DNA of 64,000 nt from Haplodiscus bocki. Lineage: Eukaryota. Below are positions 14,009 through 40,260 of the stretch, in pieces; position 1 is the stretch's first letter, and every line of letters starts with the position of its first letter. The notes under the pieces were generated by a model. It was not told where the DNA came from. It did no database searches and was given only the letters and a program-made list of their open reading frames with translations. The stretch spans positions 46,004,001 through 46,068,000 of the forward strand of contig OZ296654.1 in assembly GCA_965655095.1 (NCBI GenBank), in the 5' to 3' direction. The position numbers and the translations under genes were made by a program.

Positions 14009-14009
14009 T

Positions 14010-15388: not shown

Positions 15389-15389
15389 A

Positions 15390-15770
15390 CGGATGATAAT
15401 CCTCTGCAAGAAATATTCAATCGTAGCCGGCAACTAAGTATCGGTACCTTGGTTCATTTCCCGCTGAATATGATCCAACTCTTGGCAATCACACTTTTGC
15501 TATTTTCCACACGCAACCCACCAGGGTGAGCGTTGGATAATGATTGCAAAGTTTCGTCATGAAATATACTTTGCAGACACTCTTGAACCTAAGAAATATC
15601 ATTTTCCCGAACAACATTACAAGCAGATGATTCCAACACAATTGCAGTCCCACCCCAGTGCTTGCAATTTCTACACGATTTATGCAGCTTTACATCTCTT
15701 CAGTTTCTGTCAGGAAGAAATTAATTGAGCTTTCTTTTCTATAAGTATTCTTTTTTATGAGTAATGAAAA
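15390..15770 (+). pseudogene. Polinton adenain-like cysteine protease, decayed
   Basis: YLGSFP, GERWIM (catalytic His site mutated), YFAD, LQSHPSACNFY (Q...C). Confidence 0.82.
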
Positions 15771-15799
15771 GTAATCCTTTAGCGCTTTCAATCTAAAGA

Positions 15800-16565
15800 A
15801 TTCAGTCTGTGTGAGGTATTTGTTCAAACTTATACTCTGTAATTTTATTCCTTTAAAACTTCAATCAATCTTTTTACAAAGCATGGAGCATAAACCTTTC
15901 AGCTCCCTCGATAAAAATCTCCGCCGCCGCAATAAACATCCGCAGGCGTATTCAATTATCTGCCACGCTTCCCAAAAAAAACTGATTCCGTCTGCGCAGG
16001 TTTGAATCCCCTTAGGACCCCTCATCTTTACCCCCTTACTTCCGAGCACACTATACTACCAGACTGCCCGAAATATTTTTCGATATACAAAACACATATC
16101 TTAATAAATTGGGGTATCTTAATACATCTTGCTAACTCGGGCATCTAGTCTCACAGTGCCGAAAAGACCGAACCTCATCGCAATACATTGGTCTGAAACC
16201 TTTTTTAGAGTGAAACCGGGAACATAGTGCAGAAAAGGACGAATCCTGTCTTGAAGTGAACTCTATCCTAATACATTAGGGTATATCTTGGGACGAACCC
16301 TAGTCTCATAGTGTCCACAAAGCCCTCATTTTGCAATGCCAATAAAGCCTTAGTCTCACAGTGCCGAAAAGTTTCAGTCTCACAGTGCCAAAAAGCCCTA
16401 TTCCAATATATTCATACCACGTAATAACATAGGAGCCGAGAAGGGTCTTCCTACCCAAAATACCGGTTTTTGCTCCCTTCCGCTCTCGGACCGCTATAAC
16501 CTATCTTAATACTTGTGGGTCTTCCAACCCCCCCCCCCGTCCGATCAGCTGACTGTCTTACTACT
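15800..16565 (-). repeat. Right TIR of Polinton copy 1 with internal minisatellite units
   Basis: Terminal AGTAGT on the minus strand; repeated TCTTAATA and AGTCTCACAGTGCC(G)AAAAG units at 16095-16420; similar to the termini at 22462 and 37889. Confidence 0.8.
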
Positions 16566-19500: not shown

Positions 19501-20080
19501 TACTAAGAGAGGGCAAACCGTAATCATAACCAACAAGTTTGAAAATCTATTTTGATTTTCTATTTGTATTTGTAGTTTAAGTATCTATAGCGTCAAAGAA
19601 TGATACTTTTGTAGAAAATGGAGAAGCTCCACCATTTTCATGAATCTCTCTGGTTAGCAGTTGTCGATTAACACGGTAAAGCAACCAATTTCGAAGCCCG
19701 AACTTTTTGTGGCCATTAAGTTACCACATTCAGAGTTACAACAGTTGATGAGGTGGTGCATTTCAGATTTAAGTCCTGATTATAAAATCTATCTTAGGTT
19801 TTAAACACTCATGTCAAACCTAAGTTGATAATCCCTCTGGTAGACGTCAGTTACTTTCTGTACGTCCTGTAAATTGACTTATATCCGTTGTAATGGAATT
19901 CTTGAGTGAAACGACAAATTAATTCAGAACCGTTGTCTTCTCTGAGCTTTATTAGAGCAAGTTTTTCCTTAGAGAGCACGCCTGAACTTCGGAAAGTAAA
20001 ATAGCATAAGATTTTCACAAAAACAGGAGAAGAGTAGTATGATAATGAACCAACCAGCTGGGGTGGTGGAAGCCCCTACG

Positions 20081-20490
20081 TGTAATAAGTTAGGCTATAG
20101 GCGTCTGAGATCCGAATTGAGGTCAAAGCCGGTGTTCAGCGAGCGGAGGTCCCTTTTCGGTTGCTATAATGAGACGTAGGGTCAAGGTACTAAAATAGGG
20201 TTAAGAAATGAGTTCGGTGGAGTCGAGGGATTCCAATTATTAAAAAAAGGGATGGGTAGACGAGAGTATTCGGCATTAATTAGGATATGAAGTTTAGTAG
20301 TATTAGATGGAGCAAGACAGCCACGGGGATAGGTTATGCAACCCGAGAACCGAGAAGCGTCTTCGGTCACTGTGCGATGTGGGTCTAATGGCTGGCGAGG
20401 GTGAGAGTCTTTCTCGGCATAGTAGAAAAAGATAAAAACTGTTATTGTACTTTTTCGGGGCTGCGCATGGCCGAGCGGATAAATATTACA
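20081..20490 (+). mobile_element. LTR (3' LTR with upstream purine-rich tract) of an LTR retrotransposon
   Basis: TGTAATA...TATTACA 7-bp inverted ends, 410 bp, GC-richer than flanks, preceded by GGGGTGGTGGAAG. Confidence 0.7.
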
Positions 20491-20699
20491 GTGCGGAATT
20501 AGATTTTACGCCAGCGGTTAGTTACTAAGACTGCCGTTAATTAGTGCGCCTGCGACTATTTTCGCGCCTGGGACAGTTTTAAAGACTGAAGTTATCTTTG
20601 TAACTTATTGCTATGTGAAAAGATTGTTTGAAAGTTAAAAAAGTGAGTTAGATTATAGAAATATTACCAAAAACATTGTAAGTAAAAAATTTGAATATT

Positions 20700-22461
20700 T
20701 GCTGGGTGAGTAACCGTTTGCTTCAAAAATATTCTTTGGATAGAAAAACTTTACGACAAGCCTTTTTGGTCCTCTCATAGGTATGAACACTATGATTTTT
20801 TTTCGGAATCCGCGACCTATTGATGTTACACTTTCTTTTTCTTTGAAAACTTCCAAAGATTTTTGCACGGGACCATCTCTATTGTCTTCAATTTATTGTT
20901 TGTGTAAATCTTTGCTGCCAAACTTTTATTTGTTGAAGCAGTAGTCGAAACAACATTAGCTTTTACTACACAAACACAACATTTCTGTGGAACGAACTCC
21001 TCCTTGGACAGTCCCTACTCCCTCTTCTGTTGTTTTTTTTTGTTTTTTGCGAAAAATGTACGCCCGAAGACGTTGCGGCAACCGTCTGCAAAGAAACTCT
21101 CGTCACAGTCTTTGCTTCGCAAAAGTTCCCACTCTTGCTTTCTTGGCTACATTTTTATAAACCTTCCTTTGCGAGCGCTAAAAAGAAAGAAACTGTATCC
21201 AATTCCTCCATCTTTTCGTAATTTACTGTTTAGCGAAATTTTGAAGAAAAGTTGCAACAGAGCTGCAACAGTCTCAATTTAGCGTTCTGATAGATAAAAG
21301 ACCTATTATGATAGGCTCTTTATGTCCAATGTCGGGCTTCACCATTTCGTTTAAATAGAGTTGTTGATTGTATTGAGCTGGTCTCTCCGACAGCTTAGTG
21401 TTTATTGCTGCATCTAACCGAATGACGACTACGACCATTATTTGATATCCATAGGAACCGCTGGCAAGTATTCCTGTTGTTTCTGCAAGAACACTGGAAA
21501 TGGGACTTTCATCGTGCGACAGCAACATAATGCACAAAATTGTTGAACCATTTTACTAGAACGCACTCAACGAATGGGTAAGTTTTTGTGCATACGGACC
21601 CAGTTCCAAGTAAAACAAAAAAACAGTGTAATGATTGTTGCATTTTTACCTCAAAACTGGAAATTAACGTTCGTCGTTGTTGGTGGTTGGAACAGTAAAC
21701 TTTCCCTATAAGCAAACACTTGCATTGAAGGATTATTATCATGTCTGCATACGTTAGTATATTTAAAAACAAGAGGAAAAATTGCAGTTTTTTTCTCCGC
21801 TACTCTGGGACATGATTATCACAACGTGAATAACCAAACAACAAACCCGACTTTAGCTTTCAAATTGACTGTTCTTCTCTCAGCGGTCTCTTTAAACGAA
21901 AAGATTCTCTCAAATGCTGCTTTAGTGACGCATCTGTTTTGTATAACGACCATCACTCACGTTTCCACATTTCAGCAATATCGTTTATTTTCTTTTTGAT
22001 GTACTCTCATCGGATTTGGTCTATTGTTCTCCTTTTATTTCCCCGTTTAATGTCTTCTTCTGTTAGCGGAGGTCGTGCTTCTTGGCGAGAACAGTAAGGT
22101 TGAAACCAAGCTTTCGCTTCAAGCACGGTGCTGCAATGGGCGAAAAATCTATCCGCATTGAAACAATCATTTTTTCTGACATGCTATGGTTTAGAAGCCC
22201 TCTATTTAACAGTCGGATCTGATTCAAAGAAAATTGGTCACGAAAAGGTTTTGAAAGCTTCTTGTCTTGTTTAGTTTGTGTTTGAATCTTTGTAAATCTT
22301 CCTCAATTTCATATCTAGTGTAAAAACCTGTCGGCCTGAGTTGCCACGTAGAAAATGGGAAAAGACGGCTGGCATCAATCCCAACAACTGATTCACAAAT
22401 TTTTGTGGACTTGCCAACGAGTGTCTCCTCAAATATAACTATACGTGTAAACACAATTGAA
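20700..22461 (-). pseudogene. Protein-primed DNA polymerase B, 3' half (subfamily B, target of nested insertion)
   Basis: Begins SIVFTR; VGIDASRLFP (motif A), ILASGSYGYQIM (motif B), EELDTVSF (motif C), C-terminal TSIGRGFR. Confidence 0.88.
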
Positions 22462-23540
22462 AGTAGTAGAAGAGTGAGCACACCAAGTGGGGGAGTTTGC
22501 CTTATAGACCCTATGTTTTATTATGGGCTATAGCAAGCCGAGTGGAACCGAGAGCCGAGAAGGGTCTTCATGCCCAGCTGGGACCTCTCGGATGTTTTTG
22601 GGAGACGTAATCTCAATTCTGATTGGCTGACGAAGCCTATATGTTATTCGGGCTTGATTCCGATTGGCAGCCTACAACTTTGCGGTTTGGGCACAAGTCA
22701 AGTGTGTTCGGCAATTTATTAAGACAGGGAATGGTATACCACATTGTATTAGTATAGGCTTTGGATTTTGAAAAGTATAAAGACAGAGAGTGGGCCCAAT
22801 GACCCATTTTCGGTGCTATGAGACCTTTTCGAGATTTTTTTTTGATTTTTGGGCAGCAGCCGAGCTTCGGGCGGATATTCATTACAACTCGGTCTGATTG
22901 TGACGGCTGCGGATACTGTTATGACTTCATGCTATGTGAAAAGATTGCTGCAATGTATTAGTATACGGTATCCTTCGGTAATGTATTAAGATAGGTTATC
23001 GTTTGGTATTGTATTAGGATAGGGTCCAATTGGCTAATGCATTAAGTTAGAGTTTAGTCCTGTAAGGTAAAAAGGTAAGGTATAGTTCGGCAATGTTTTA
23101 TGCTCAGTAGTATAAGGGTCCAAATGGGTTTTCGGAGTGAAGCTCAACATTATGTCAATCTTATCACCTGTCAATCCTGGATTCAACATATGGTTTCTCG
23201 CAAGGTAGACTCGAGCTTTCGAAAACGTTTTTCAGTACTAAAATCTTCTTCTAACTAGGACGCCTGAGGGATAAAAGTTTAACTAAGGGATCTCAAACAA
23301 ACGTGAAGATTGACTCCAGCAATGCAAAAGTAATAAGGGCAAAAAAATGTAGCCATGTTACCCATTACAATATACCATATATTTGATTACCACCAAAAAA
23401 GACCTGTCATAAAAGGAGATACCGACCATAAAAGCAGCTGTCAATCAGTTTTTCACGATTGCGCATACTGCGTTGACCTAATGCCCTAATGCTATCTAAA
23501 AAGTTTGATATAGAGTTTAAAATTTTTAATTAGACAATAC
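22462..23540 (+). repeat. Polinton terminal repeat (~1 kb), partner of 37889-38600
   Basis: AGTAGTAGAAGAGTGAGCA vs AGTAGCAGAAGGGTGGGCA; shared TTTGGGCACAAGTC, TGATTGGCTG and AAAAAATGTAGC blocks. Confidence 0.85.
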
Positions 23541-23589
23541 AATAAATAACAAAAGCATGTTATAACATGCACAATTACATTGAAAAGCT

Positions 23590-23983
23590 CAAATTATTAT
23601 ATGTAACTACTAATAAAGGAATATATATTGACATCGTGAGCTCAGGTAATTTCTCCTTGTCGCATCTTGAGGAGAGCATAAGTTGCTTATGTCGTGTAGA
23701 AACCGCAGACGCTTGGATTGGACTGTAATGGTTCTGGCATCATCTGCTTGTATTGCCGCTTGAGGAAACTGCTGCGTCCGAGAAACTCTGCAACATACAA
23801 TTTTAAATGAGAGTTTGCATACATTATCCAATGCTCATCCTGCAAAATACGGAGTTACGTTTTCATAATGGCAAAAGTCTCATTGAGGAGAGTTGGAACA
23901 GAATCTGCGGAGAACGAAACAAAGTTTCGATACTTGAGTAGAAGGATACGACTGATTACTTGCTCCAGAGCAACGTGATCCAT
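23590..23983 (-). pseudogene. Polinton adenain-like cysteine protease, decayed
   Basis: MDHVALEQVISRI...DEHWIM...LQSNPSVCGFY. Confidence 0.85.
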
Positions 23984-23985
23984 TT

Positions 23986-25105
23986 TAGATATTCTTCACA
24001 ACGACGCCAAACTTGAAACTGCAACCGAAGGCTTTCGATTGCCCAATATACTGATTCTGGAAACGTGTTCTAGAGGAAAAGTAAAGTTTAGCTCGAGTCT
24101 CAGAGGTTCTCCAACTAGTTCTGTGTAATGACAGTTTTCAGTAGCTTCTTGCATTGAAGTCAAATCAAAAACAATTACTAAGTGATCTTTGATTATGTCA
24201 ATGGGAATTGAGGGTATATCATCTTGAAAAATTATCGTTTTCATTGTCGTAACGCATAAAGGACAAAACTCATCAGTATCAAAATCTTCAATTGGCTGGC
24301 CATCTCTGATTATTAAATTGTCTGAGATCGAACTGCTGTTATTAGAATGGATTTTCAGTGTCAGATCCAGTGAAAGCAGAGTTTGTTTTCATGGCAATGG
24401 CAATTAGACGAAGTGGAGCATTTCAAAAGAAGTTATTTTGATTGAATTGGTTTTGTTTTGTAGGAATGATAAAAGTCTTTACCAGATTTTCCAAATCCTT
24501 GACTTTCACAGGGGTATAGGCGAGCATATCGTTGTTTCTCTTGTGATTATCGTCCTTGAGAGCAGTACGACGAGTGTAAAGCCAACTGTCAAACAAACAA
24601 CATTTCCCAGACTAACGTTGGGGTTGTCGCCAATCATGTTAAATTACGGTCCGTCTCTGATTAGTCGTAGTCTATTTTTCATATTTAGATAAAACAATTC
24701 AAAAGTGAAGAAATAGTCAACACCCAATTTACCATACAACATGAAGCCTTCCGGTCCACTAAGCATTTTCATTTTTGTTGTGAAAAATGAGTCAGACAAG
24801 GGTTCTTCGTAACTTCATCAGGAAATTCCTAAAATTCGTATCTCTGGCAGTGGAAAACGTCCTTGTTTTCGGAGATGGCTCCTTTGAAGTTGTTGGAAAC
24901 GTAAGATTAGTGCGAATACAATCCTTATAGATTGTTTATTTGCTGATTGTTGATGTATACTTCAACATTGGAAAAATTTTTTGCAAAATGTTGTTTACTT
25001 GAGTAACGAGAGGAACTGGAACCTCTTGCACTTCCTCCTCCGTTTGCATAACCGTTTTAGCTTCATTTTTGTGCCCCATTTTTATTTCATTTATTTGTAA
25101 GTTTA
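23986..25105 (-). pseudogene. Major capsid protein, 5'-truncated third copy
   Basis: GFMLYGKLGVDYF; FQDDIPSIPID...VFDLTSMQEATENCHYTELVGEPLRLELNFTFPLEHV (ORF 23996-24244). Confidence 0.88.
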
Positions 25106-25189
25106 GCAATCTGAAGGGAGTGATCCAAGCTACCGATATTTCAGTATAAGGTAGGATTTTTTATTTGCTGGAGAGTAGCTTTTTCGAAT

Positions 25190-26555
25190 TCGGATATTCT
25201 TTCCAACGAGCCAAACTTGTCAGTTGCAACCGAAGACATTCGATCGCCCAATACAATGATTTTAGAAACGTGTCCTAGAGAAAAATTCAAGTTTAGCGCT
25301 GCAGTCTCACCGGTTCTCCGAATAGTTCTAGGTAATAGAAAAATTCAGTAGCATCTTTCTTGAAAGTAGAATCAAACAGTACTAATAAGTGGTCTTTGAA
25401 ATTGCCAATTGGAATTGCGGGATTGTCACCTTGCTCGCATTCCTATAACAAAGGAGCAACAATTAATAGCAGCATAAAAGTTTACCATTGGCTGACCTTC
25501 TCTGAGTATTCTACTTTGTCTGAGATCGAATTTCTGATAACAGAATGGTTTTTCAGTATACGATGCAGTGAATGCAGAATTTGTATTCATTGCAATGGCA
25601 ATTCGACGAAATGGAGCATCTTTAGAAACACTTTCCTGAAGGAATTGGTTTTCTCTGGAGGGGATGATAATTGTCTTTTCCACGACCTCCAAGAAGTTGT
25701 AGTCCACGGGAGTATATGCAAACATGTCCTTTCTTGCCCGGTGATAAGTATCTTTGAGAGCAAAATACCTGGTGTAAAGTGAACAATCAACACTTCCTAG
25801 ACTAACGTCGTGGTTATCGCTGGTCATGTAGAAATTTGATCAAGTTCTGATTAGACATAGCCTAACTTTCATATTTGGACATAACAATTCAGAGGTGGAG
25901 AAGAACTCAACCCCCAGTATATATGCAATATAAAGCCATCGAGTCTACTGAGCATTTTCATTCTGCTTGTGATTAAGGGTTCAGACAAATCTGCTTCCAT
26001 AATCTCATCTAGAAATTCTTCATAGTCGTAACCATTGCTGTGCAAAGCTCCCTTGTCTTCAAAGTTGGTTTTCTTAAAGTTGTTGGAAATGCAGGACTTG
26101 TGTGCATGGAGTCCAATTTGTTTGTGGTTTCGATGATTGTTGATGTACTTCTGAAAATTGGAACAAAAGGAGTGCAAATGTTGTTTACACGAGTAACGAG
26201 AGGAACTGCAGCCTCAGCTTCCTCCATCACCTCATTTTCCGTACGCCATGCTTTGATTCTCCAGCATCTTCGGCTTCTTTTTTTGTGCTTGTTTCTAACT
26301 TCCTTGTTTTTGTAAGTTTCGCAACCACAACTTTTGAAGAGTTTCCGTTTCAAAGCTAAGTGACGTAGTCTCAATTTTACGTAAAAGTTCCGATCTGTTT
26401 GAAATTCAAACACAATACGATTTTCATGAAGTCAAGTAGTAGGATAAACTTCTCGTTCGTGGGAAGCCAATGCATCGTCAAACAGTTGGACTTTCGCTCC
26501 AAAGTTTCAAGAAACTGCCACACAATGTTGGTATAGAAAATTTTTCTCGACATGA
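25190..26555 (-). pseudogene. Major capsid protein, second copy, decayed
   Basis: ORFs 26009-26413, 25869-26177 and 25426-25827 match hexon copy 1 (FEFQTDRN; RRIAIAMNTNSAF). Confidence 0.88.
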
Positions 26556-26908
26556 CCAACCAGAAATGCCTGTAAAAATATCTCTACGTGACCGGCTGGC
26601 TTCCTCGCTAGATTTGTTTGAAACACTTTCCTTTGCTTACTACCACAAACAACCTATTTTCTCAATGTTTGTCCTCCCGCACTCTTTGCCGCACTCTTGA
26701 AATTTTTTCTAACACTTACAACCTCTGCATCTTCTGGCACAGCAAATTCCAACAAAAGAGCAACCACGCGTTTTGCAGTTAGGAAGGAGTTTTTACGTAA
26801 AAATTGAGCGCTTCACTTATTAACTTGCGCAAGTGCACCGAATCCCCGTCTACTTTGTCATCCAATACCTCTATAGAGTGGAATGTCTACTTGTCTTGAG
26901 GCAACCAA
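26555..26908 (-). pseudogene. Small basic core/cupiennin-like protein, decayed
   Basis: VASRQVDIPLYRGIG*QSRRGFGALAQVN; homolog of 13655-14008. Confidence 0.7.
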
Positions 26909-26924
26909 TTTCAGCGCCTTTTAG

Positions 26925-27695
26925 GTTAGAAATGAATTTTAGAGGCTTTTCTGAACATCTAAACAAGACGAGTGAAACCGACAGATACTAAAGGTATTTT
27001 TTCACCGCTCGTGTCTCTCAAGTCAAGAAAGAGTATTTGAGCAGAGGTTTGAAATGTAGGCTACTGACTGTCTGATAGTTCATGTACTGCCCACTGGTTA
27101 GAAAGCCGCCAGTTCTTAGCTTTGAAAAAATGGGAAAGCAACGCAGCAAGGGAGCCTTTGTGTCGCCAAAAAACTTGTGTTCAATCAGGTTCGTGTTTTT
27201 CACGAGAGAGTGTATGCGGACAAGTGTGTGCGCAAATTCCGGTTTGTCTATTCTTTATCCTCTCAACATCATTCCGAAATCCGTGCTAACATTACTCCCG
27301 AAAAACTTTAACAAATCTTTACTAAATATTCCAAGACCAGATCCTTCATTTGCAAGGTAAATCTCAAATTTTGCGTTCCCTGAGACATTTCAACCCTTAG
27401 ACACATTTCGCTGTGATTGCGTCTCTCATGAAAGAGACTGTTCATGGCTTCAACAAAAACCGTAATGGAAGGGTTTATACCGGGTTCCAGATAGTAGAAT
27501 TCTGACGCGTTTGAGAGGTTGTTATCAAAAAACTTGAACTTGTTCGCTGTGATAATTTGGTACATTGACGGGTAGGAAATGTCCGAAGTCACAAGTTCCC
27601 ATTGGTCATCCAAATTCGGTTGATCCGGTAAAACTTCTGTAGAGAAGCTGAGTGTTTTGTCTGGAAACAGTTGTACAGATGCATTACAAACCAAC
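26925..27695 (-). pseudogene. Minor capsid protein (penton), decayed
   Basis: ELVCNASVQLFPDKTLS...WELVTSDISYP; GDTKAPLLRCFP...YMNYQT (ORFs 27308-27772, 27018-27203). Confidence 0.8.
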
Positions 27696-28520
27696 TCTGG
27701 AAGATGTTGCAACAATTTCGAAAACTTTCTGTGCAAACCGTGGCTCATAAGATTTCCTGAAGGGTAAGTCATACTTCGAGATAGGAACTGTCTCTAAGTT
27801 TAAACTTGGGTTTTTCAAATTTTCGTAGTGGCTTGTTGTACAGAAAGGACAAAGAAAACGGAATTCTTGACTTTTTGGTAACAATTCATTCGAGCATTTT
27901 TTTCTGGATTTCAGGGTAGTGACGCATTGAGACAACTTGTGAATGTATTTGTATCGATAATCTTCCCTGTAACGGTAAAGTTTTTTTTTCAGCGATATTT
28001 TTGCACGTTCAGCAAATGCAGCCTTAGTCACTCACACGCAAGGTAGAATAAATTAGTATTGCTTCAGCTTTTTATTTTTAAAAAAACTCTCCAGTGTTTT
28101 CTGTTCCTTTATCGATACAAATTTTCTTGGATGATTCTTCTTTGTGATCATAGTTAAAAAATCGCGAACAGTTTCTTTGGAATCTTTTGTTTTCATTCCT
28201 TTTTCATCTACACTTCTATCAAACAGGTCTTGACAAAATAACAGACACTTTACACCGTTAACCCCTTTGGCTGGCTTATCAACGTATGCCAAGTCCGTCC
28301 ACCAAATTTCATTTTTGAGTCTGGCGAACAGTTTCAACCACTTTAATTTACGTGTGGCAACAAAAATTTTCGTGTAGGCAGTTTTTTGAACATGAAAATT
28401 GTCTCACCTTTGATACTGGCAGATTGCCAGCTTTCACCAAATTGTTTACAAACCCAAAAGCAGCACCACACTGAGTGTACAGTCTTTGCAGCTTCTGACG
28501 TTCATATTTTGAAATGAACC
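27696..28520 (-). pseudogene. Retroviral-like DDE integrase, decayed, C-terminus deleted
   Basis: NEIWWTDLAYVD, CQDLFDR, TKAAFAER (ORFs 28053-28337, 27684-28031). Confidence 0.9.
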
Positions 28521-29200
28521 CAGCTTCTTCTCTCCTTGGTTATGACATTTTGATTCAGAACCAGAGTCTGAGACATACCAGCAGTGTCACTTAGAGTGAA
28601 GTAACGGTCTGGAACTGCAGCGTTTTAACGACGCAGTTGCTGAGCAAAGTCTGACAAAAAGTTCCAGTTTTCACACTATGCAATAAATAGTGTTGGAATT
28701 TGACAGCTTGATACGAGAACAAGACAAAGTATTGTCAACTACGGAGCCTGCACTGGTAAACAATTTTTTTCCTTTTCTAGTCGAGTAAATTTGGTACCTG
28801 GTTTTTTATTCAACTTGAATTTTTTGGAGCTCTTGTTTTTGAACTGCCTGGATATTCAAAAACTTGTATTTCTACACAGAAGCCGGGACGCGAACACACT
28901 GCTCCGTATCAAGACAATTGGTTAATGACGGAAACAAAAACAAATTTACGAGTTCAATACCTTTTTCGGCTGCCAGAACGTCCCTTCTGTGCTCACAAGT
29001 GAATATTTTTATAAAAATCAATCGGACCTCGTTTTGAAATTTTGTCACTTGATGTCTTTTTATGCTTTGCAAATTTCCTTTGAGTGGATTTTTTTTCATT
29101 TTCAGAGGAACCTGCTAAACTCTATTGGGCAAGACTGAAGGAAAAAACTTTCGCATTTGAGAGGAAATGATTGGATTACTTGGAAATAGAAAGATTTTGT
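28520..29200 (-). pseudogene. Two small conserved Polinton ORFs between ATPase and integrase, decayed
   Basis: FLQSCP..F.RFL...LKGNLQSIKRHQVTKF matches 11560-11790 in copy 1; the second ORF (EQCVRVPASV...) matches 11795-12160. Confidence 0.6.
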
Positions 29201-29826
29201 GTGTTCATTGTCCAAAGTCTCCAGATGTTTCAACCCGTCCGGGATTAAAAATTCGAGGGAGTAGATCCAGGGTTTCTGCAGTAACGGAGTCAATCAAAAA
29301 AGGACCGTGGGGAATAGAAATTGCGTCTCAATACCAGCCAAGAACGTCTGATCGGAATCCCAATTGTGCACTAAGCCTAATGATGTGCGCATAACAGGGA
29401 GGTTTCAAGAGAACACTGAACGTGTTTTGTTGCTCAACGTCTCAACTAAAATTGCTTTGATGAAACAAATTGCCACTATTGTATTAAGTATTCAATACAC
29501 GATGTCTTCCAGCAAAACCAGTATCAAAAAACGCTTTTCAGATGTAAGTTGCCTCACATGAGTCGCCAAATGTTAACAAATACTTTGCATTGTTGTTTTT
29601 AAACGAATCTATAAAACCAAACTTTAAAACTTGAACAAACTCCAGATTATCAATCTCTTTTGGCATAATTTTGTGAAGTGGCTGAGATTGTTGTTGGAAA
29701 AAAACTTGTTATATTTTGGTTCAAAGGTTCCAATCTGGTGCTACTTGCAAATAATCTGTGAGTTTCCCGCCTTGGACGGACCATCAAAATAAATATACGC
29801 TTTATTGGAGTAATTAACTTGTTCAT
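29020..29826 (-). pseudogene. Packaging ATPase, decayed
   Basis: ATG at 29826; GPSKAGNS degenerate Walker A; HQSNFS*DVEQQNT; colinear with 10840-11667. Confidence 0.82.
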
Positions 29827-30199
29827 AACCTTGGTGACGGTGAACTGTATCCTGCTGCACTACCAAAATTCCCAAACAAACAGTTGTTTCATAACGAGTT
29901 TTTTGAAGTTGAACTCACCAAAAAGCAAACAGCGATAATCAACAAAATGACAAAAGGTCGGAACGAAAAATCTGTCAGATATCTGCAAGAGGATTGTCCC
30001 AAACAAGACCAAATTTTTTTTATTGTTCGTTTTCCACAAGGACAATTTTGCCTTGATCAGTATTATCTTCTTGGTCAGTCATCAATTGCTGGCTTGAACG
30101 CTCAGTTACTCAAAAACTAATCTCGGAGGAAGGTTGAATCGTTTCGAAAGATTTAATTGCGTAGAAACTGACACAACATTCCATAGTGCAACTCTTACA

Positions 30200-30665
30200 A
30201 TTACTGCTGCTTTGTCCAGTTAGCAAGCAATTTTGCTTTGCGCTCTGCACTGTGAAGTGTTTTCTTGCGTTTGACAGCGTAACTCGAGCACAAACACAAT
30301 TTTCCAACTGCTCTAGGATCAGCAAATTCTGTTTTTTGAGGCAACTATGATGCTCCAAGTTTTCCACTGCTTTATCTTTTGAATTGTAGAAAAATTTGCA
30401 TTTTGCACTCTTCTGTCTCTTTGGCAAAATATTCACCCCTTACAAAACTGAGAAGAATGTTTCGAAGCTCACTGTAATCCAAACAATCACTGTCAGTTTC
30501 AATTCCGTGCATCTTTCCTGTTCATCAAATTGCTTGTTTCTGGGGTTTGTACCTCTTTGGAGCACAAGATGAGTATCCCAGAACCTTCCGATCAGTAAAA
30601 ATCCCAACTCGTTAATGAATTTTATATATGCAAGCTCAGTATCTAGTACAATGCAAAACATACTG
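30200..30665 (-). pseudogene. Putative DEDD exonuclease-like accessory gene, decayed
   Basis: MFCIVLDTELAYIKFINELG...HSAERKAK; homolog of 9970-10495. Confidence 0.45.
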
Positions 30666-31589
30666 CTTCCAAAGTCAGCAGATTTGAAAATGAAAGGCAG
30701 AAACAGTTTTAAAAGCGAAAGTGTAGTCCAGTTACGTGACCAAGCACATAAGAACTTGGTCCTCGTCCAGTCATGGAACAGTAGCCAAAGACTTTTACCA
30801 ATTTTTGACCGCACGGCTCCAGCAGCGCCATGTGTTTTTGCCTGTATTCTAAACGCCATGGAATGAAAAAACATAAACTCAAAAACACGAACAATTACTA
30901 AACAAGTATACCTTCCGAAAAAAAACCCACCAAATTTAATTTTTTCGGTCCATCTTACGTAACAAAAGTGTATCATCCCAACAGTGACCTGCACTTAGAA
31001 TAAAAAAGTTCCCAGCACCATTGTGGTCAAATGAAAATGTTTTTCTGAAGTAGTATCGGAAAATGCTCCTTAGTGTCATTACAAAGAGAACATCCATCCT
31101 TGACGAAAGTTGTTTCAAACACAAACAGAACAGTTGTTCCATTCAGTTCCATGCACCGCTTGGAAAGTACTTCAATGTTACTCTTTTTTTATACTCCTTT
31201 TGTCAAGAGCGTTTGGTTCTCTGACATGTTCAGATGAACTTCATTGTTTCATTGTATAAATTTTTTCGTTAACGATACACGGCATTATACAATTTGTTTG
31301 TAGCAGTCTTGAAGTTAACACATATTTTTCTCCTATCATTAATTTTTGTTCTCTTTGGGCGGGAAATTTCTTCTTTGGATCAGTCTGTTCAATGACTGGT
31401 AACTGTTGCTTTTCAACTCCAAATAGTGTAAAATGTTTGGAAGAAGTTTTTGGAGTGGTAAGTACAACATGATAAAGTCTCCATTTTGACTTTAGCTGAA
31501 GAAATGGGCTTCAATTGTCTCGAATGCTCTATTTCATCGTGATTCGAAAAGAAAACAAATTGATAAAGAGTGAATAGTTGCAATTACTT

Positions 31590-32140
31590 TTTGTAGGAAA
31601 TTACTAGTGGGTTTGTCAGTAATGGCTTAACCATATACAGAATTTCTTACATCAAATGGATGGAAAAGTTCTTCTCGCCCCCTTTCTTCTTTGCAAATAA
31701 TTGGACTTGAGCCTATGATCTCTCTAGCTTGACCACAGTTTACGCATCAGTGTCACAGATATTTTTCTGTTTTTTTCGGTCCACAAAGTCACCTAGTTTT
31801 TGAGCGAACTTGAGTTGTTCATCCATATCTTTGACATTGTCAGAACCTGTACTGGAGTCAATTTTTCCTCTCATCCAAAAAATTTCACTCGACAACTAGC
31901 TGATTTTTTTGTGTGATAAATTGATCGAAGACTGTTTCTCCCTTTTTAAGGTGTTGTATCAGTTGAAACAATTTGTTGTCACCTCTCTTGCAATGTTTGA
32001 GTTTAACATTCAAAAAAGTCGAGTCATCTGTGGACGAGAAAAGCGTCCTAATCTGTCTTCACATTTTCCAAAATGTCCACAATTTCGGTACGAGTTAGCT
32101 TGTCCATGGAAAGAGTATTGTTCCGAGTGAAGGGTTTTGG
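31590..32140 (-). pseudogene. Polinton accessory gene (possibly PC4-like), decayed
   Basis: FGKCEDRLGRFS...MSKDMDEQLKFAQKL; homolog of 8665-9085. Confidence 0.5.
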
Positions 32141-32304
32141 TTGTCGATATAGTACTCTGGATTCTGGAAGAAGTGTTTTTTTTAAAATGAAAGTTAAAGA
32201 CTGATTTTGGGGCTGCGATTTGTTGCTTATTCGCAATACTCCAGAGCAATGATCATCCAGCGAGAACTTGAAAAAAACCAACCATCAGATTTTGTATGAA
32301 ATAT

Positions 32305-32480
32305 TTTGACGACGTATCAGACTTAGTAGCATTTTTTTGACAACGCGTCAGATTTTCAACCTTTTTCTTCACAACGCCTCAGATATGTAACTTGACAAAA
32401 TTTTAAAAAGCAGTTTTAGAGTCATACAAATTACGACGTGTCATTTTTCCATTCAACAGGTTTACAACGTGTCTGATTTT
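32305..32480. repeat. Array of about five degenerate ACAACGCGTCAGATTT motifs in a Polinton intergenic region
   Basis: gacgacgtatcagactt, gacaacgcgtcagatttt, cacaacgcctcagatatg, tacgacgtgtcattttt, tacaacgtgtctgatttt at ~30-40 bp spacing. Confidence 0.65.
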
Positions 32481-32999
32481 GAATCAAAATTATTCATGAT
32501 TTCTAGGTACAAAATGGAACCTAATTCCAACGCTTGTTTTCTTCACAACGTCTTCCTCCATACTATCATGAACAATAACAGCATACATTGTACTCGTCAA
32601 CAAAATGATAGCATTCACCTTTCAAACAGTAGTTCTTGTTCTCTTTTTCAACGGGACTTTGTGCCTTAATTTCGCTGTGGTGTACCACTCTTCAATCTGT
32701 TCGAACTTGATATTTGCAAAAACTAGCTGCTACTAGTAAGATTAATGGTAACGAGAAAAAAAACTGTTTCTGTCCCACGCATGTTTAACTAGTTTTTGAA
32801 GAAATTTTTGATAAAGTGTAACATTTCTAATTACGTTTTTCATCAAAACACAAACACAGTGACAATTTCATAATTTTTTTAACCAAATTTTTGTAAAGAG
32901 AGTGAATTATTTGTAAGAATGGGAGAATTCTCCTGGTTTCCACTTCTTCTATCAGGATCGGTTTTCCAGCCATCGAACCCATCGCAAAATCTTTAAAAG

Positions 33000-34670
33000 T
33001 TGAAGGGGAGATGGGGGTATCTAGGGGGAAAGGGGAAAGACTGCATCCATATTCAAGTCAGGATCCTCCCAGTGAAACTCAATTCCGTCGATACTGGCCA
33101 CCGGAAAACCGCTTGTTTCCATGACTTGTGCGCATACATTTGAGAGTACACACTCCCTCAATTCCACAGTTCCTTGCTTGTTGGGGGTAAATGGAACTCG
33201 CGCTAGGTGATTATCCAAAACTTCTTGTCTTTGAGACAGGAAGCTCCAAGCTGCCAGAGGAATGTCCGGGGCACATATTGTCTTTTCTTGGACGAGGTCT
33301 TTTACAGTCAGAAAAATTAAATCTTCACCAAAGTCGAGAGACCAATCATTACGATTGCTGGAGACTGAAGAAATCATGCTGTTTTATTGTAGATTGCAAA
33401 GGTGTAAATTTAGACTGGGAGTAATTTCTTGGTTGCCTGTATGAACCAAGGGGGAGTGGACGCATTAATGCCGTAAACGGAATAATGTTCGCCCATTTTG
33501 GCGCAGCCTGAGGTGTGGCTGATTGCAATTGGCGGAGAAGTCACGATTAATTCTTTTGGCCAAGCAATATACCCCATCACCGTAAAAATAAACAAATGTC
33601 GGTTTTTGATCCTTAAAAGGCCTTTTCAAGTTGTGGCAGCACTCTGTGAATTGCAGACATTCGTGACAGTTTTCGCCATTACTTTTTCATGTAAGGACAT
33701 AGACACGCTTTTGTCTTGAACAACAACTGCCGTGACAAAAGACATCTCCAATAAGATCTTGACCTGATTTCTGCGTCTCTTCAAAAATAAATTTTGGTGA
33801 TTACACATCAAAAGAAAATAATTGGTTTTCTCTTTAGAGTGAACGGACCTTATATATGGGTCCTTATTGAGGACATGGTTGATCAATTGTGTCGAGATTC
33901 TGAAAAAATTTTTTGCTCACGTGAAGATTCCCAGAACACATTTTTTTCGGACAGTTCACGTTCCCACTAAAATTAATATTGCTCTTATCATAACCACAAA
34001 TAGTGTTAAATGTGTTACACATCGAAACTGCTCTCAATTGTTTCACATTTGTTTCCAACGTAAATTGGTTTTTGTAGAGTTGTTGATTATCATGATGATT
34101 ATGCTTGACAATTTCTGTAGGTACGATCTGATTAAGATGTAGCTCAAACCTTTTGATAGCAAAGACACAAAGTTTGTTGTTTTCCCATTGGAACGAAAAA
34201 TAGATTTGTGTATTTCGATGTTCAATGGTCTTTGCATAGTAATGAGCAGAGGGAAGATCTTCCAATTTTGTAGGTCCGATCTCAATTTGGTCTGTGATAA
34301 CGAAACCTGTAAGCAATTGCTAGCTTGGTCAGAAGTGTTGAGAAGATCGAGCAAGCTGTTGACCAAGAACTGAAGCCTCTTTTGGAAATTTTTACTTTTT
34401 CTTGGAGGATTTATCGGTGCTGTATCTTCAGATCGCAAAACTGGAACACTCTAACTGCAAACGACTTTTTGTTAGAGACTTTGCTAAAAAGCGTCATTCG
34501 ATGCTGGGACTGGAAATCGTCAAAAACGCAGTGTTCAAAATAAATATCAACGTCAGTTTCGTCCAAAAAGTCTTCCAGTTTTTCTGCGTTTAACAGAGAG
34601 AGTTGGCACAAACTGAGAATTGGGTCTTTGGCAAAGATCAACTGCTTTTATTGTAAAATGAATAAACTGA
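33000..34670 (-). pseudogene. Cluster of Polinton accessory ORFs of unknown function, decayed
   Basis: ORF fragments 34411-34641, 33864-34316, 33410-33595 and 33021-33377, co-oriented with the structural module. Confidence 0.5.
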
Positions 34671-35399
34671 CGGTGCAGTTGTAACCGCGATACTGTTGGT
34701 TAAAGTTTTTGACTTTGAGGTATGGTAATCTTTTTTTGATCAGTCACATGTGATCATCTTGCTTCTGACAAAAAAAAATTGTGGAACCAATGTATGGTGG
34801 TTAAAAAACTAATAGGTTGATTAGGTCACTGGAAATACTTAAATCCACAATTCCAGATCGGAAGCTTTTAAATTCCACACCACACATTATCTGCCCGATC
34901 GAAAAACATTGTTTGATCCGTATATGTAATTTTTTTTGATTGACAGTTGAGACGAAATTAAAAAGGACAAACAAATCAACTTCCTCAGGCCTATCGGGAG
35001 AACTTGTTCCACTTGAATGATTTACTTAGACACGCTGTCTTGGGGAATTAACTCAATTGGTTAATTTTCTGCGACAGTCTGTGGTCTTAACAGGGGATTT
35101 TGTTCCGCTCGAAAGTTTCTCACAGACATTCTGTTTTAATCATTTTTCAGAAGTTTAAAATTATCGGTTTTTGAGATAAACAAACTGATTGACATTTTTT
35201 TCCTTTTTTCTTTTTTCTTTTCGGTATTATTCTTTTCGTGTTTGGTATTTCTCAACAAGGTTTTTTCATAAATATTTTGAGGAAATGAGTATAATTTGCA
35301 AAACATTTTTTGCCATCTTTTCTCTTACTTTGCAACAGTCAAGTTGCTACAATGTTCACGTTTACTTTAGATTACCTTATTAAACTTCTGATGCTCAAA

Positions 35400-37888
35400 T
35401 GCTTTCTTTGGTCTGAAAATGAAAAGTCTGAAAGCGAATACTGTGGTAATCAAGTAAAGGGAAACAATTTAGTGCGTCACAAGAAGAAATTTTCAACGGG
35501 AACCCTGTACTGAGGCAAATTTTTGATGCTCTTCACAATCTCCCAGCAAAAGTTGAGCTTCAATTTTGCCGGGCAGCATAACTCAAAAAAATGTTTGCAA
35601 GTGACACCCGTGCGGTAAAGACTTTCCTAATTTCGTTTCCTACCGATTACACTGACAAAAGATTGTTGGAGCGAAAAGTGGGTCAAAAGCAAAAAAAAAC
35701 TGACATTAAAAGTAAAGTCGGAGATGTAGGTTACGGTTGCTTCAAAGAAGGGTTAGAAACGTGCAAATACTTCATCGTCGAAGCTGAGATGAAGAATGAG
35801 AGACATAGAGTCTTTAACTTTGCAACCGATTCTCATTTGTTTAGTAAAAAGTTAAATCTGGTGTTTGATAGTCTCAATTATGCAGTAGGGATGAAAGTAG
35901 CTTTTGGCTTCGTTGTCAAAAACGTAGATGATGGCAGTTGCCGCCACTAAAATCCCCACGAAAATCACGCTGATGAAATGATCCAAACTCGCGGTTACGA
36001 AATTAGATTTGAAGCAAATCGAAAGGTTGCCGATTAATGTTGATATGATTGGATCCTGCACAAGAGAGCGGGAAAACACCAGGTGGAAGATTCTCGGACT
36101 AACGAGAGTTACAGTTTTGCTGAACTTTTGAGAATAAATGTTGTTTTGCCTAAACTACTCATCAAAAATCATTCGGTCAATTGATTGACTTTGGATAAGA
36201 GCATCAGAAAACTATATAACGATAACCTATGTTTCTTCAGAGCTCTGGCTCTCCATTTGCACCTAGTTAATGATAATTTGAAAAAAATACGTCTAAAATG
36301 TTTCCTGAATATGTACAAAAAATGGAAGACGTTGATACAGCCAAACTTGGAGGCGTGTGTATGATTGAAATTTAAAACGTTGCATACTTGACAAAATAAA
36401 CTTTTTTCTGTAAGATATTGACTTCTGTTGATAGAGCTCTTGTTGGAGAACTAGCTAGAAGAATCATAGGATTTATTCCAACAGTGTGAAGTTGTTACGT
36501 TACATTAGGCACCTTTGTTGCGTTTCCGATATCAATGCTCTCTTCGAAGCCCAGCGTTGTCCATGGTATGATAAATCTATTTAAAAAGCTAGTAACCTGG
36601 AGAAGCATTGAACAGCTTGCACAGAAGGAGTCAAGCATTTTTTGCCAAAAAACGTGTATCAGCTACGGGAAAAACTTTATGGCAAATTAGACGTTTTCGA
36701 TAACCCGTGCACAAACGAACGTAAGCATTTTCAGATTAGGGCTATTTTTGATATCGAGTCAGTTCTAGTGGAGGATGAAGAACTAAAAGATCCAAAAACT
36801 ACAACCTATATCTAAATACATATCCTAATATCACCTTCAATACCATCCTATAATTTTGGAGATCTTGTCTTCCTCTGCGATGTTTATCTTGATGACTTGG
36901 TGTTATCTTTCATTGATGCTCTGGCAAATCTTGACAAATAGAGTGAAGCGCAGTTTGAACTGAATCTCATGCAAGTTGAAACAACAATATGGAAATAAAA
37001 TTGCAGAGTTTTACGAAAGTTCTAGTCAATGTCGCACTAATACAATCAAAATCGAAAAAAACTGTCTTAGAAATGACTCTGTTGATGTCTCAACACTGTT
37101 TATAAATGCAAAAATTTTAACTCATTGATTGGTAGGATCACTTTGAGAGATATTGTAAAACATTATCAGTTTTTGCCGTCATCAGTGCAGAGCACGATAT
37201 CAACTTGATCAAGGCTCCTTTTTTTCACCAAGTTTTGTTGATGAACGAGACTTTGAGCCAATTGTTATACAGAAGCTTGATCACCTAGTCTCGTTCACAT
37301 TTGGTAACGTTTAGTTGCTTGATATTTTGAATTTTTCCGTGGAGCCACCAATCTTGATTCTTTCCTTGAAGCGTACACATCGAAAGAAACGAAAAGCCTC
37401 TTCCTCTTTCAATGGGTCAAGCACCCAGACAAGATGAATGGCACAGAATTTCCCCCCTTAGGGTTATTTGTTACAAAAATTTACGAAAATGCGATGCTCT
37501 CGAGAGGGAACATCGAGGCTGTGAAAGATTGATCAGTAGTGGAAACTAGACGCAATCTACTTTAACCAAATTGAATCTCTTTGAAGTACTGGAGCTGACA
37601 ACTATGAAACCTTGTACAAAGTGTGCGAAAGAGGAATTATGCAGACATTCAAAGACATTTTGTGGTAGTACAACAACAAAGACATTGTCATGACTTTGGA
37701 GGCTTGTAGAAAATGAATACGTTTTGTCATGATAAGGGTATTGACGTGCTTAGGATTGAATGCAAAAGACCCAATCTCGCCCACACTTGTCTTCACAAGT
37801 CATTGAGGTCAAAATTTCATCCCTCTAAAGAAACTGGCATAATCTTGCTGGAAAGAGTCCGCGAAGACATGGTCGGCAGACCGTCAAT
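35400..37888 (+). pseudogene. Protein-primed DNA polymerase B, 5' half (subfamily B), cut at GRPSI by a Polinton terminus
   Basis: N-terminal zinc-finger remnant, YNDNLCFFRALALHL, AIFDIES (Exo I), SAEHDINLIK (Exo II), YNNKDI (Exo III), REDMVGRPSI. Confidence 0.88.
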
Positions 37889-38600
37889 AGTAGCAGAAGG
37901 GTGGGCAGATCAGATGGGGGGCTGAAGACCCTAGGTTTTAAGATTGTCTCTAGTGAGCTGAGTTTAGCCGAGAGCCAAGAAGCGTCCTCAGGCCTAGCCA
38001 AGAGCTCTCGATTGTTTTTGGGTGACGTAATGCTCGCTTGTGATTGGCTGTGCAAGTGTAAGTGTTTTTCGTGCTCAATTCTGACTGCCTGCCGAGAACG
38101 TTTCGGTTTTGGGCACAAGTCCAATAAGCTCAGCAATGCATTAGGATAGGGAGTGGGCTTAATGACTCGTTCTTTGGCGCTCTAAGACTTTTTCGACAAG
38201 GTTTTTTTTAATTTTTGTACAGTTCAATAATATATTAAGATAGGGTGTAGTTCGTTAATGTATTCAGTTAGCGTATAGTTTCATAATGTTTTGAGAGAGG
38301 GTGAAGCTCGGTGAGGCATTGAGATGGGGTATAATATACTTTAACTCAAGAATCTCAAATAAACTTGAAAATTGTAACAACTTGACTTAAGCAATGAAAG
38401 AGGTACAATGGCGAAAAAAATGTAGCTGGCGTTACCTATCAAATTACAACATATATGGAAGGACCACAAAAAGAAAGGTCAACCATAAACAAAAAAACCT
38501 TACTAACTGTCAATGGCTTTATCTCACGCCTGTGTATACTGTTTCAAGTTATTGCTTAATAAAAAGACTGAAGTCAAGTTTAAAAAATAATATTTTGAGA
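37889..38600 (+). repeat. Polinton terminal repeat, partner of 22462-23540
   Basis: Starts AGTAGCAGAAGGG exactly where pPolB homology stops; homologous to the 22462 terminus. Confidence 0.85.
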
Positions 38601-40260
38601 CTACAAATGCGAACAGACACAAGACAATGTTCAATTGAATAGCTTCTTTTCTGACAAATTATGAGGTTGATTGTGAATTCCATTCCCTCTACAGTTCGTT
38701 ATGGGTAGAAATAGGAGAGCTTTTTTTACTTGTTCATGTGTAGCATTAGTGTGAGTGTTTGTGCAGAAGCCTCTGTCTCTTGACGTGTTTTTACTTTTTT
38801 CATCCAGGACGCGACGGTACATGTCCATGGGGCCATATCCGCTCTGTTCTAGCACTTACTTGTTGAGGCCCTTGCTACTGAACTCGAACTTGTTTGAGGT
38901 AACATCATAGCTGAAATACGTCTTGCCACATAAACAAAACAACTCTGTACAACTGAACTCCTCTTCGTATAGACAAGGCTTTCTCTCGTCATGTTTTTTG
39001 TGCTTGTCACAAGTCATTCGGGGGAAGAAGTTTTCAACTGGGTTAGTAGGGAAACTATCAGTGCAATCCCACTATACTTTCATTTCTGGTCTGATACAAT
39101 CTTCCAGTTCCTTCTCGGCAATGCAATATGCAGAGAATCTGTATTCATCTCCAACTTTTCGAACTTGTTTACATCACAAAATTTAGTGAAAATTTGTAGT
39201 GGAGTTCCAACAATTGGAGTTTTGCATGTTGAAGAATGAAGAATCCCACAATGATTGGCTTTTTGTGTTCAATTTGGGCTTTGGTGAGTTCAACCTAATA
39301 TAATGAATTGCTCGCGTGACCCAACCTCTTGAAGAGCTTACTATTGATAGCGGCATAAATTTTTTTGTCACTGAGTGACTTCAGAGTGTGTTGGCTGCAG
39401 TCGATAATCTGGTAGCCATAGGTTTTGTTGAACAGGAGTTTCATTGTCCTTGCGACGACGCTGGGATTTGGATTCCCGTTACTTGGTCGTCCTGCGTCTA
39501 CTGCTGACTGTAGAAAGCTGTTGAAATACTTCTTTGGCGTGTACTCAACGAAGCGGCTTATTTTCGTACAAACTAGTCCCAGTTGCATTCAGAACAAAAG
39601 CAGATAAGATTCCCATTTTGTAAAGTGAAGCTTGATATCAACATCTTCCGAGGTTGAGACATTATTCCTCCTTTTTGGAAACAAGTTTCCATTAAGTCAC
39701 CAAAATCATTCTCGCTCACCAAAGTTTTTTTGAAGACTGGAGGGATGTTAACAAAATTGGTTCTCAAGTTTACGGGCAATTCATTGTCACAAGGAACGTA
39801 GCCAAATAAATTCCCGTTTTTTCTTTCTTTTAATAGATGACCAGCTGCAAATTAAAGTTCCTTAGAAAAGTTTTCTCGGATATGTTTCATGACAGTATTG
39901 CTTGTTTTGTACAATTTCGACCAATCACACTCTCAAATTTCAATGACAGTGAAGCCTTCTTCTTGTATATGGCTTCGTCTCAATTCATCGAGCTCTCTCT
40001 TCGTAATACCACGTTGCATATCTTCTTCAATGAGGGTTGGACGCACTTCTTGACCGTGGCAAAAATGGTAAAAACATCCCATCGTTTCAAACACAGTGTT
40101 GCAAAAACAACAAAATCCATCAACACTGAAGTAGTCACTTTTCTTCTGTTTGCCTGTAGTGTAGGAGCTCTCGATTTGCAATCTGGTCTTGTTCGTTAGA
40201 AATAGCATATGACCATTTTTTAAAAGCCACTGGTTTTGTTTTTTTGACGTGTGAATCTAT
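38580..40260 (-). pseudogene. Protein-primed DNA polymerase B, 3' part (subfamily A, belonging to the inserted element)
   Basis: FSVDGFCCFCNTVFETMGCFYH, TMKLLFNKTYGYQII (motif B), LEMNTDSL (motif C), GYGPMDMYRRVL. Confidence 0.88.

What the first reader, a model, noticed from the sequence alone, without database searches (positions are those of the whole stretch)
20700..40260. One pPolB gene split by a nested Polinton with a 6-bp TSD, halves now inverted 15 kb apart
Seen: + strand pPolB stops at GGC AGA CCG TCA AT|AGTAGCAG (37888/37889). Minus-strand pPolB resumes after CTACTACT|TTCAAT TGTG TTT ACA CGT (22462/22461). The flanking hexamers GTCAAT and TTCAAT match 5/6, and joining the halves restores G-R-P-S-I-V-F-T-R in frame. 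Established: Polintons have AGT-type termini and make 6-bp TSDs. Inference: element A integrated into the polymerase of element B. The two TIRs now lie in direct orientation, so a later inversion flipped the segment from ~34.7 kb to >=40.3 kb. That placed B's pPolB 5' half where A's own polymerase would sit, as recombination between the oppositely oriented elements would. This is a route to chimeric Polintons with swapped replication modules.
Basis: partly seen in the sequence, partly recalled or inferred. Interest (0 to 1): 0.8.

Follow-up and report, generated by a model that had tools for sequence, protein, structure and literature searches.

The report
Nested, inverted fossil Polinton pair
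One virus-like transposon jumped into the polymerase gene of an older, already decaying relative and the pair was later flipped and truncated, a real but long-dead fossil rearrangement rather than a working hybrid virus.

Summary
A pPolB 5' part (+, ~35400-37888) stops, and a 3' part (-, 22461-20688) starts, at the same residue in 44 of 49 natural relatives spanning the site. The two overlap by 6 nt (5/6 match), and each abuts an AGT-type terminus; the two termini are 75% alike and lie in direct orientation. Both halves are old (61-62% of family-invariant residues kept) and fall outside the clade of the inserted element A, whose own pPolB 3' piece (40321-38655) and integrase keep 74-77%. So A inserted, in opposite orientation, into an older and probably already dead element B.

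The later inversion is inferred: the A-to-B join keeps gene order, but I could bound it only to 28.9-35.45 kb and its reciprocal junction is missing. New: B's own right end lies at 20033. A B-aged left arm with a matching end lies at 8.7-16.6 kb. A 1.6-kb capsid tract was copied between that arm and A after decay began, direct evidence of ectopic recombination here.

No functional polymerase swap is shown: the polymerase next to A's genes is truncated and carries about 34 breaks. Nesting plus TE-mediated inversion is a known kind.

The parts
8663..15800 (+). 'Copy C': structural-gene arm of a B-aged Polinton (integrase ~11.95-12.9 kb, major capsid ~13.95-15.44 kb, protease-like ~15.47-15.73 kb), inverted relative to 23.6-32.0 kb; B's displaced left arm or a same-age sibling
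   Evidence: blastn 64-77% to 23.6-32.0 kb; homology ends at 8663/31989; integrase keeps 79 of 133 invariant residues, 59%; Atlas feature hits to DJR/capsid clusters for 14632-15081, lead only
15800..16565 (-). Terminus LC of copy C (AGT-type start at 16565 reading leftwards)
   Evidence: 68% over 165 nt to T3, score 86 vs shuffle max 25-34; only 32-46 to T1/T2
20033..20690 (+). Terminus T3: element B's own right end, ~650 nt beyond the pPolB stop
   Evidence: AGTAGTA start found by motif scan; pairs with LC, not with T1/T2
20688..22461 (-). B pPolB 3' part (cL), from the target site to the C-terminus; pseudogene
   Evidence: P0056 residues 664-1266, 12 stops and 15 frameshifts; 124 of 201 invariant residues kept; outside clade I
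22456..22461 (-). TSD copy 1
22462..23590 (+). Terminus T1: element A's left TIR, lengthened by 28-nt tandem repeats
   Evidence: 75% to T2 over 266 nt; inner homology; tandem repeats
23600..25110 (-). A protease-like gene and major capsid copy a (5' end missing)
   Evidence: homologous to C 14.36-15.8 kb at 69%; open frame across the site where copies b and C are broken; gene names partly from recalled motifs
25131..26730 (-). Capsid copy b plus upstream gene: tract copied from (or with) copy C after decay had begun, leaving a 1.1-kb tandem capsid duplication
   Evidence: 84.7% to C over 1483 nt vs 65% in the flanks; 222 sites b=C vs 65 and 62 for the other pairings; shared 1-, 8- and 11-nt gaps
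27690..28540 (-). A integrase
   Evidence: relatives carry PF00665; 72.6% to P0256, end branch 0.40; 101 of 136 invariant residues kept
28900..35450 (.). Interval holding the in-register A-to-B switch (inferred inversion junction)
   Evidence: A-like up to ~28.9 kb; B-aged from 35.45 kb; middle unresolved
33390..34680 (-). Conserved gene of unknown family ('gene X') divergent from pPolB
   Evidence: 199 relatives at E<=0.001; one copy in the window; age tests disagree
35227..35373 (+). Motif M upstream of pPolB, also present facing outward inside T1 and T2
   Evidence: 64-67% to the TIR interiors, not to T3/LC; similar sequence upstream of pPolB in P0041
35400..37888 (+). B pPolB 5' part (b), ending at the target site; pseudogene
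   Evidence: P0041 residues up to 896, 19 stops and 15 frameshifts; 108 of 178 invariant residues kept, equally decayed along its length
37883..37888 (+). TSD copy 2
37889..38645 (+). Terminus T2: element A's right TIR, now in direct orientation to T1
38655..40321 (-). A's own pPolB 3' piece (cR), truncated at 40321; its 5' part is absent from the window
   Evidence: clade I 100/99, branch 0.39; 163 of 213 invariant residues kept; 63.5% DNA identity to cL; no Polinton protein hits at 40.5-57 kb

Best explanation
Step 1 (shown): a Polinton of family A was integrated by its retrovirus-like integrase, in opposite orientation, into the pPolB gene of an older Polinton B, making a 6-bp TSD. Step 2 (inferred): B was already a decaying pseudogene at that time. 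Step 3 (inferred): host repair later recombined the oppositely oriented, homologous A and B arms in register somewhere between 28.9 and 35.45 kb. This inverted the block carrying B's 5' pPolB, A's right end and A's 3' pPolB, so A's two ends became direct repeats and B's 5' polymerase came to sit where A's would be. Step 4 (inferred): the other side of the inversion (A's 5' pPolB, about 6 kb) was lost, and B's left arm was either lost too or survives, displaced, as copy C. Step 5 (shown as a copy, mechanism inferred): a later homology-directed repair copied 1.6 kb of capsid region between C and A. The locus is a dead fossil with no function; nothing can transpose from it as it stands.
For: Same-residue junctions and 6-nt overlap. 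Two end families, T1~T2 and T3~LC. Two age classes: B pieces keep 311 of 512 invariant residues, A pieces 264 of 349, p=5e-6. Matching long branches for b and cL (0.76, 0.72) vs 0.39-0.40 for cR and A's integrase. cL sister to cR rejected, p-AU 1e-5. Gene X, the intergenic piece at ~35.0 kb (P0143 head) and the pPolB upstream piece (P0041 head) all have natural Polinton-linked counterparts, so the join is not marked by foreign DNA. The post-mortem capsid tract shows that ectopic recombination between inverted copies did act here. If C is B's arm, B's three pieces sum to about 16.2 kb, a full-length element.
Against: The reciprocal junction is not in the window; right of 40321 there is no Polinton coding sequence for 13 kb. 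The switch could not be mapped: gene X scores 71%, 59-62% or 64% depending on the column set, and stop-count and CpG tests had no power. AU tests do not reject b or cL as sister to clade I (p=0.38; p=0.088). B's family is absent from the reference panel, which biases its apparent age upward. The flanks of LC and T3 match only 2 of 6, so C is not shown to be B's arm.
Confidence: 0.65

Rival explanations
1. Alternative transposition: the integrase used back-to-back ends of two tandem A copies (T1 and T2), attacked B's pPolB and inverted the intervening DNA in one step; a later deletion between the now direct A and B arms made the in-register join.
For: Gives the same split TSD and direct ends; no reciprocal junction is expected, and none is found. 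Inversions by alternative transposition are described in maize (PMC8225341, search listing and abstract start only). T1/T2 identity (75%) is slightly below the rough 79% expected for one element.
Against: Needs two extra A copies and at least one more event; not reported for Polintons in my searches. The ages of T1/T2, A's integrase and cR agree with a single element.
Confidence: 0.13
2. Nested insertion followed by a non-homologous route to the same layout: an inversion with non-homologous breakpoints and deletions, or an inverted segmental duplication of the nest followed by deletion.
For: The locus has other non-homologous joins (25.1 kb, 40321, 8663). The switch point itself was not found.
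Against: B's polymerase lands at the normal place downstream of gene X and motif M, with no leftover A polymerase between them, which would be a coincidence for random breakpoints.
Confidence: 0.12
3. Autointegration: one element inserted its own two ends into its own pPolB, giving an inversion circle that later entered the chromosome.
For: The geometry (direct ends, split TSD, 5' half in its native position) is what an inversion circle gives (PMC3952818, passages; my note).
Against: The split gene is older than, and not of the clade of, the integrase and pPolB piece that go with T1/T2. cL has its own, different terminus T3. cL and cR are only 63.5% alike and are rejected as sisters.
Confidence: 0.04
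4. Misassembly: two real junctions from one nest were joined in the wrong orientation.
For: Repeat-dense region; no reads available.
Against: No N. A and B are only about 64-66% alike and the longest close repeats in the window are about 85%, too divergent to collapse. The join keeps gene order.
Confidence: 0.05

Closest known systems
Polintons/Mavericks (Polintoviricetes), AGT-end type; PMC8097293 and PMC10748475 (passages read)
   Same: pPolB plus rve integrase, capsid module, 650-1100-nt TIRs starting AGT, 6-bp TSD; most genomic copies are degraded fossils, as here.
   Different: The target is another Polinton's pPolB, the ends are in direct orientation, and all genes are broken. The family is close to unnamed ENA proteins and one protein named from the acoel Convolutriloba macropyga (P0099).
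Polinton-induced inversion at C. elegans eri-6/7, PMC11414722 (passages read)
   Same: Several Polintons at one locus, inferred ectopic recombination between inverted copies, a split gene, TIRs left as direct repeats.
   Different: There the split gene is a host gene rescued by trans-splicing; here it is a dead viral polymerase and no rescue or function is indicated.
pPolB exchange between Polintons (PMC10748475; bioRxiv 10.64898/2026.10.13.758929; passages read)
   Same: A structural module of one family now lies in register next to the polymerase of another.
   Different: Those are whole elements with intact, deeply different polymerases; here the polymerase is half a pseudogene and the families are about 64% alike in DNA.
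Autointegration inversion circles of Sleeping Beauty, piggyBac and retroviruses, PMC3952818 (passages read)
   Same: Both ends re-oriented, with a TSD inside an element.
   Different: Target and ends come from two elements of different family and age.
Nested mobile elements in Polintons/PLVs (PMC12220804; bioRxiv 10.1101/2025.02.07.637071; passages read)
   Same: Insertion into an essential gene immobilises the host element.
   Different: The inserts in the passages seen are retrotransposons, not a second Polinton.

Membership tests
Polinton/Maverick | Protein-primed family B polymerase | tested here: met
   Three fragments align to relatives of up to 1266 aa; 7 of 100 relatives carry precomputed PF03175. 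The window's own pieces and P0056/P0041 gave no PF03175 hit.
Polinton/Maverick | Retrovirus-like (rve) integrase | tested here: met
   Weak direct rve hit, E=0.009; closest relative P0256 passes the PF00665 cut-off, 72.6% identity.
Polinton/Maverick | Long TIRs with AG/AGT termini | tested here: met
   T1/T2 and T3/LC pairs; present orientation is secondary.
Polinton/Maverick | 6-bp TSD | tested here: met
   A: 6-nt overlap, 5/6 match. B (T3 vs LC flanks): 2/6, not shown.
Polinton/Maverick | Double jelly-roll capsid, packaging ATPase, protease, minor capsid | tested here: inconclusive
   Capsid: Atlas hits at 0.95-0.96 to DJR/Capsid clusters with low recognition score. ATPase and protease: no Pfam hit; named from recalled motifs in six-frame translations.
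Active (intact) Polinton | Intact core ORFs between inverted TIRs | tested here: not met
   Longest stop-free stretch in 20-41 kb is 184 aa; 15-34 breaks per pPolB piece.
TE-mediated ectopic-recombination inversion | Oppositely oriented homologous copies and an in-register junction | tested here: inconclusive
   Orientation follows from the junctions; gene order is kept; exact switch not mapped.
TE-mediated ectopic-recombination inversion | Reciprocal junction at the other breakpoint | tested here: not met
   Absent within the window; could lie outside it or be deleted.
Autointegration inversion product | Ends and target belong to one element | tested here: not met
   Family and age differ.
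Functional pPolB-swapped Polinton | Whole foreign pPolB with usable ends, amplified as a family | tested here: not met
   Half gene, broken, direct ends; copy number elsewhere not testable with these tools.

The most novel reading that the evidence does not exclude
In Polinton-dense genomes, opposite-orientation nesting followed by in-register ectopic crossover is a real source of the replication-module swaps seen in Polinton phylogenies. The missing reciprocal product here (B's end and capsid arm joined to A's whole polymerase and right end) would have been a full-length chimera with unlike ends, and copy C is its surviving half, moved by a circular or block-swap step. This locus would then be a frozen intermediate of a process so far inferred only from trees.
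Probability: 0.12. Interest if true: 0.62.

Novelty: new member of a known kind. Interest (0 to 1): 0.3.

Why it matters
Nested insertion and TE-driven inversion are well known, and a Polinton-driven inversion is described in C. elegans. A Polinton-in-Polinton insertion with its TSD did not turn up in three full-text searches (listings, plus passages of the hits named), though supplements were not read and subscription papers are not held. The locus is a clean, datable example: it confirms the 6-bp TSD by protein register, orders two Polinton waves, and shows that dead copies about 65-70% alike still exchange sequence. It would matter more if a genome-wide survey found amplified elements with unlike ends or A/B mosaics, since that would supply a mechanism for pPolB exchange. 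This locus alone does not.

Tried and rejected
Single-element autointegration: rejected on family and age. A switch inside the capsid gene making all of 25.1-37.9 kb B-type: rejected, because the integrase at 28 kb is A-aged. A simple 46-kb tandem duplication to explain copy C: not supported, because the flanking direct repeats are 67-76% alike with only one 84% tract and end at 4250/50468. Raw identity correlations across 20 of 43 spanning relatives: uninformative. Pairwise stop counts (7 vs 10 even for cR vs cL) and CpG loss: no power. Shared frameshifts against P0281 may be that protein's own and were not used. The AU test nesting b with P0014+P0058 (p=0.011) also forces those two together, so it is weak. 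Homolog search with the N-terminal b ORF found none among 93 candidates. Pfam on 215 ORFs gave only two rve hits and one weak pPolB hit of relevance. Atlas search of the flanking repeat ORF was blank. Longer members of each pPolB clade could not be obtained, so clade II is unsampled for b's N-terminal half. Rows dropped: P0011, P0013, P0087, P0090 from trees (out of frame at the site); P0118, P0182, P0199 from the gene X set (repetitive). No DNA of related elements was examined: the viral and metagenome contig collections stayed unchecked, and no eukaryotic genome collection was on hand.
Full report
Observation. The + strand pPolB fragment b ends at 37888 against a terminus starting AGTAGCAG (T2). 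The - strand fragment cL starts at 22461 against a terminus starting AGTAGTAG at 22462 (T1). The hexamers match 5/6. A frameshift-aware alignment to natural relatives found with the third fragment (100 proteins) puts the end of b and the start of cL at the same residue, in 44 of 49 relatives spanning the site. The overlap is therefore exactly 6 nt, the TSD length given for vertebrate Mavericks (PMC8097293, passages). T1 and T2 are 75% alike over 266 nt, with patchy homology up to the neighbouring gene ends, and both read rightwards. The host is probably an acoel worm: the one named relative is from Convolutriloba macropyga; this is inference.

Two elements, two ages. The third fragment cR (40321-38655, -) ends about 750 nt from T2 and starts 36 codons past the target site. 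It is 63.5% identical to cL in DNA, falls in the abundant clade I (100/99, branch 0.39), and is rejected as cL's sister. b and cL fall outside clade I with branches 0.76 and 0.72. At clade-I private sites b scores 2 vs 6, cL 0 vs 7 and cR 7 vs 0. AU tests do not exclude b or cL as sister to clade I, nor b as sister to clade II, so shared subfamily is consistent, not proven. At residues shared by three clades, b keeps 108 of 178, cL 124 of 201 and cR 163 of 213. The integrase near T1 keeps 101 of 136, like cR. Pooled with copy C's integrase, old pieces keep 311 of 512 and young pieces 264 of 349, p=5e-6. With my assumption of 2.3 replacement sites per codon this is about 0.22 vs 0.12 substitutions per site, predicting 67% and 79% identity between an element's two ends; observed are 68% (T3/LC) and 75% (T1/T2). 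B's family is not in the panel, so its age is somewhat overstated. cL also has its own terminus T3 at 20033, unlike T1/T2. Together this shows insertion of A into an older B and argues against single-element autointegration, whose geometry otherwise fits.

The inversion. b is joined to A's right end and cL to A's left end, so A went in opposite to B. Direct ends then require a later inversion or an equivalent event (sequence logic). From T1 to b the order is protease-like, capsid, integrase, further genes, gene X, intergenic DNA, motif M, pPolB. Gene X, the piece near 35.0 kb and the piece upstream of pPolB each match natural Polinton-linked proteins or read-throughs, and no leftover A polymerase lies between. 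This in-register join is best read as ectopic recombination between the inverted arms, as inferred for Polintons at C. elegans eri-6/7 (PMC11414722, passages). The sequence is A-like to about 28.9 kb and B-aged from 35.45 kb, evenly along b. Gene X gave 133 of 188, 59 of 95 and 30 of 51, and 64% of 224 with a 0.41 end branch beside a long row. It leans old in two of three counts but is unresolved, and motif M is ambiguous. The reciprocal side is missing: no Polinton protein hit lies between 40.5 and 57 kb.

An inverted arm, copy C (8663-16565), has an end that pairs with T3 (score 86 vs shuffle max 25-34) and a B-aged integrase (79 of 133), and it stops at the position equivalent to 32.0 kb. 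If it is B's left arm, B's pieces add up to 16.2 kb, but it lies on the wrong side, back to back with T3 across 3.5 kb, and the flanks match 2 of 6. I put the odds at about even between a displaced arm and a same-age sibling. A 1.6-kb tract at 25.13-26.73 kb is 84.7% identical to C against 65% in the flanks. It shares frame-breaking gaps that capsid copy a lacks and leaves a 1.1-kb tandem duplication. It was therefore copied after the gene had died, and more recently than A's insertion: direct evidence that inverted copies at this locus recombine.

Meaning. The product has A's structural genes beside half of a dead B polymerase, between direct ends. B had probably decayed before A arrived. It cannot replicate or excise as a Polinton, so it is not a swapped replication module. 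pPolB exchange is documented from trees (PMC10748475; bioRxiv 10.64898/2026.10.13.758929; passages only), and nesting plus crossover could in principle yield such chimeras through the reciprocal product, but that product is absent here. Searches for Polinton nesting or chimerism showed no Polinton-in-Polinton case in the listings or in the passages read; supplements, which might list such loci, were not read. A search for Polintons in acoels found nothing relevant (listing).

Verdict. Real, well supported as a nested insertion (about 0.95), with a probable recombination-driven inversion (about 0.65). It is a fossil example of known processes. Interest 0.3.

Noticed in passing
window 35227-35373; 38351-38497; ~23275-23450: A ~150-nt non-coding motif upstream of pPolB recurs, facing outward, inside both A TIRs (64-67%) but not in T3/LC; a similar stretch precedes pPolB in P0041. 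Possibly a promoter captured into the TIR.
   Followed up: partly
window 199-4250 and 44752-50468: Unidentified direct repeats 46 kb apart, 67-76% alike with a 1.5-kb tract at 84.4%, the same level as the capsid tract; the right copy has a 1.7-kb insert (46.4-48.0 kb) that looks LTR-retrotransposon-like from recall. Pfam and Atlas were blank.
   Followed up: partly
window 52073-64000: A third, low-GC (24-31%) Polinton of a distant family: weak pPolB hit at 54.5-54.9 kb, rve integrase at 57.6 kb (~25% to A's relatives), weak DJR hit at 58.9-59.6 kb, longer ORFs than A or B.
   Followed up: no
window 52073-52546: The end of that element is a palindrome: its first ~106 nt recur inverted about 370 nt further in (81%), giving AGT...ACT at both ends of a 474-nt unit.
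   Followed up: no
window 10357-10524: A 67-nt inverted repeat (85%) inside copy C, with no counterpart in the 30.2-kb homolog.
   Followed up: no
window 22456-22461, 37883-37888, 52067-52072: The hexamer before the third element's end shares its last four bases with A's TSD copies; too few sites to claim a target preference.
   Followed up: no
window 61690-62040 and 59650-59940: Degenerate 25-57-nt tandem arrays within the low-GC element.
   Followed up: no
window 16566-20032, 40330-44750, 4250-8660: Spacer stretches with no match to any fetched protein or to the rest of the window.
   Followed up: partly
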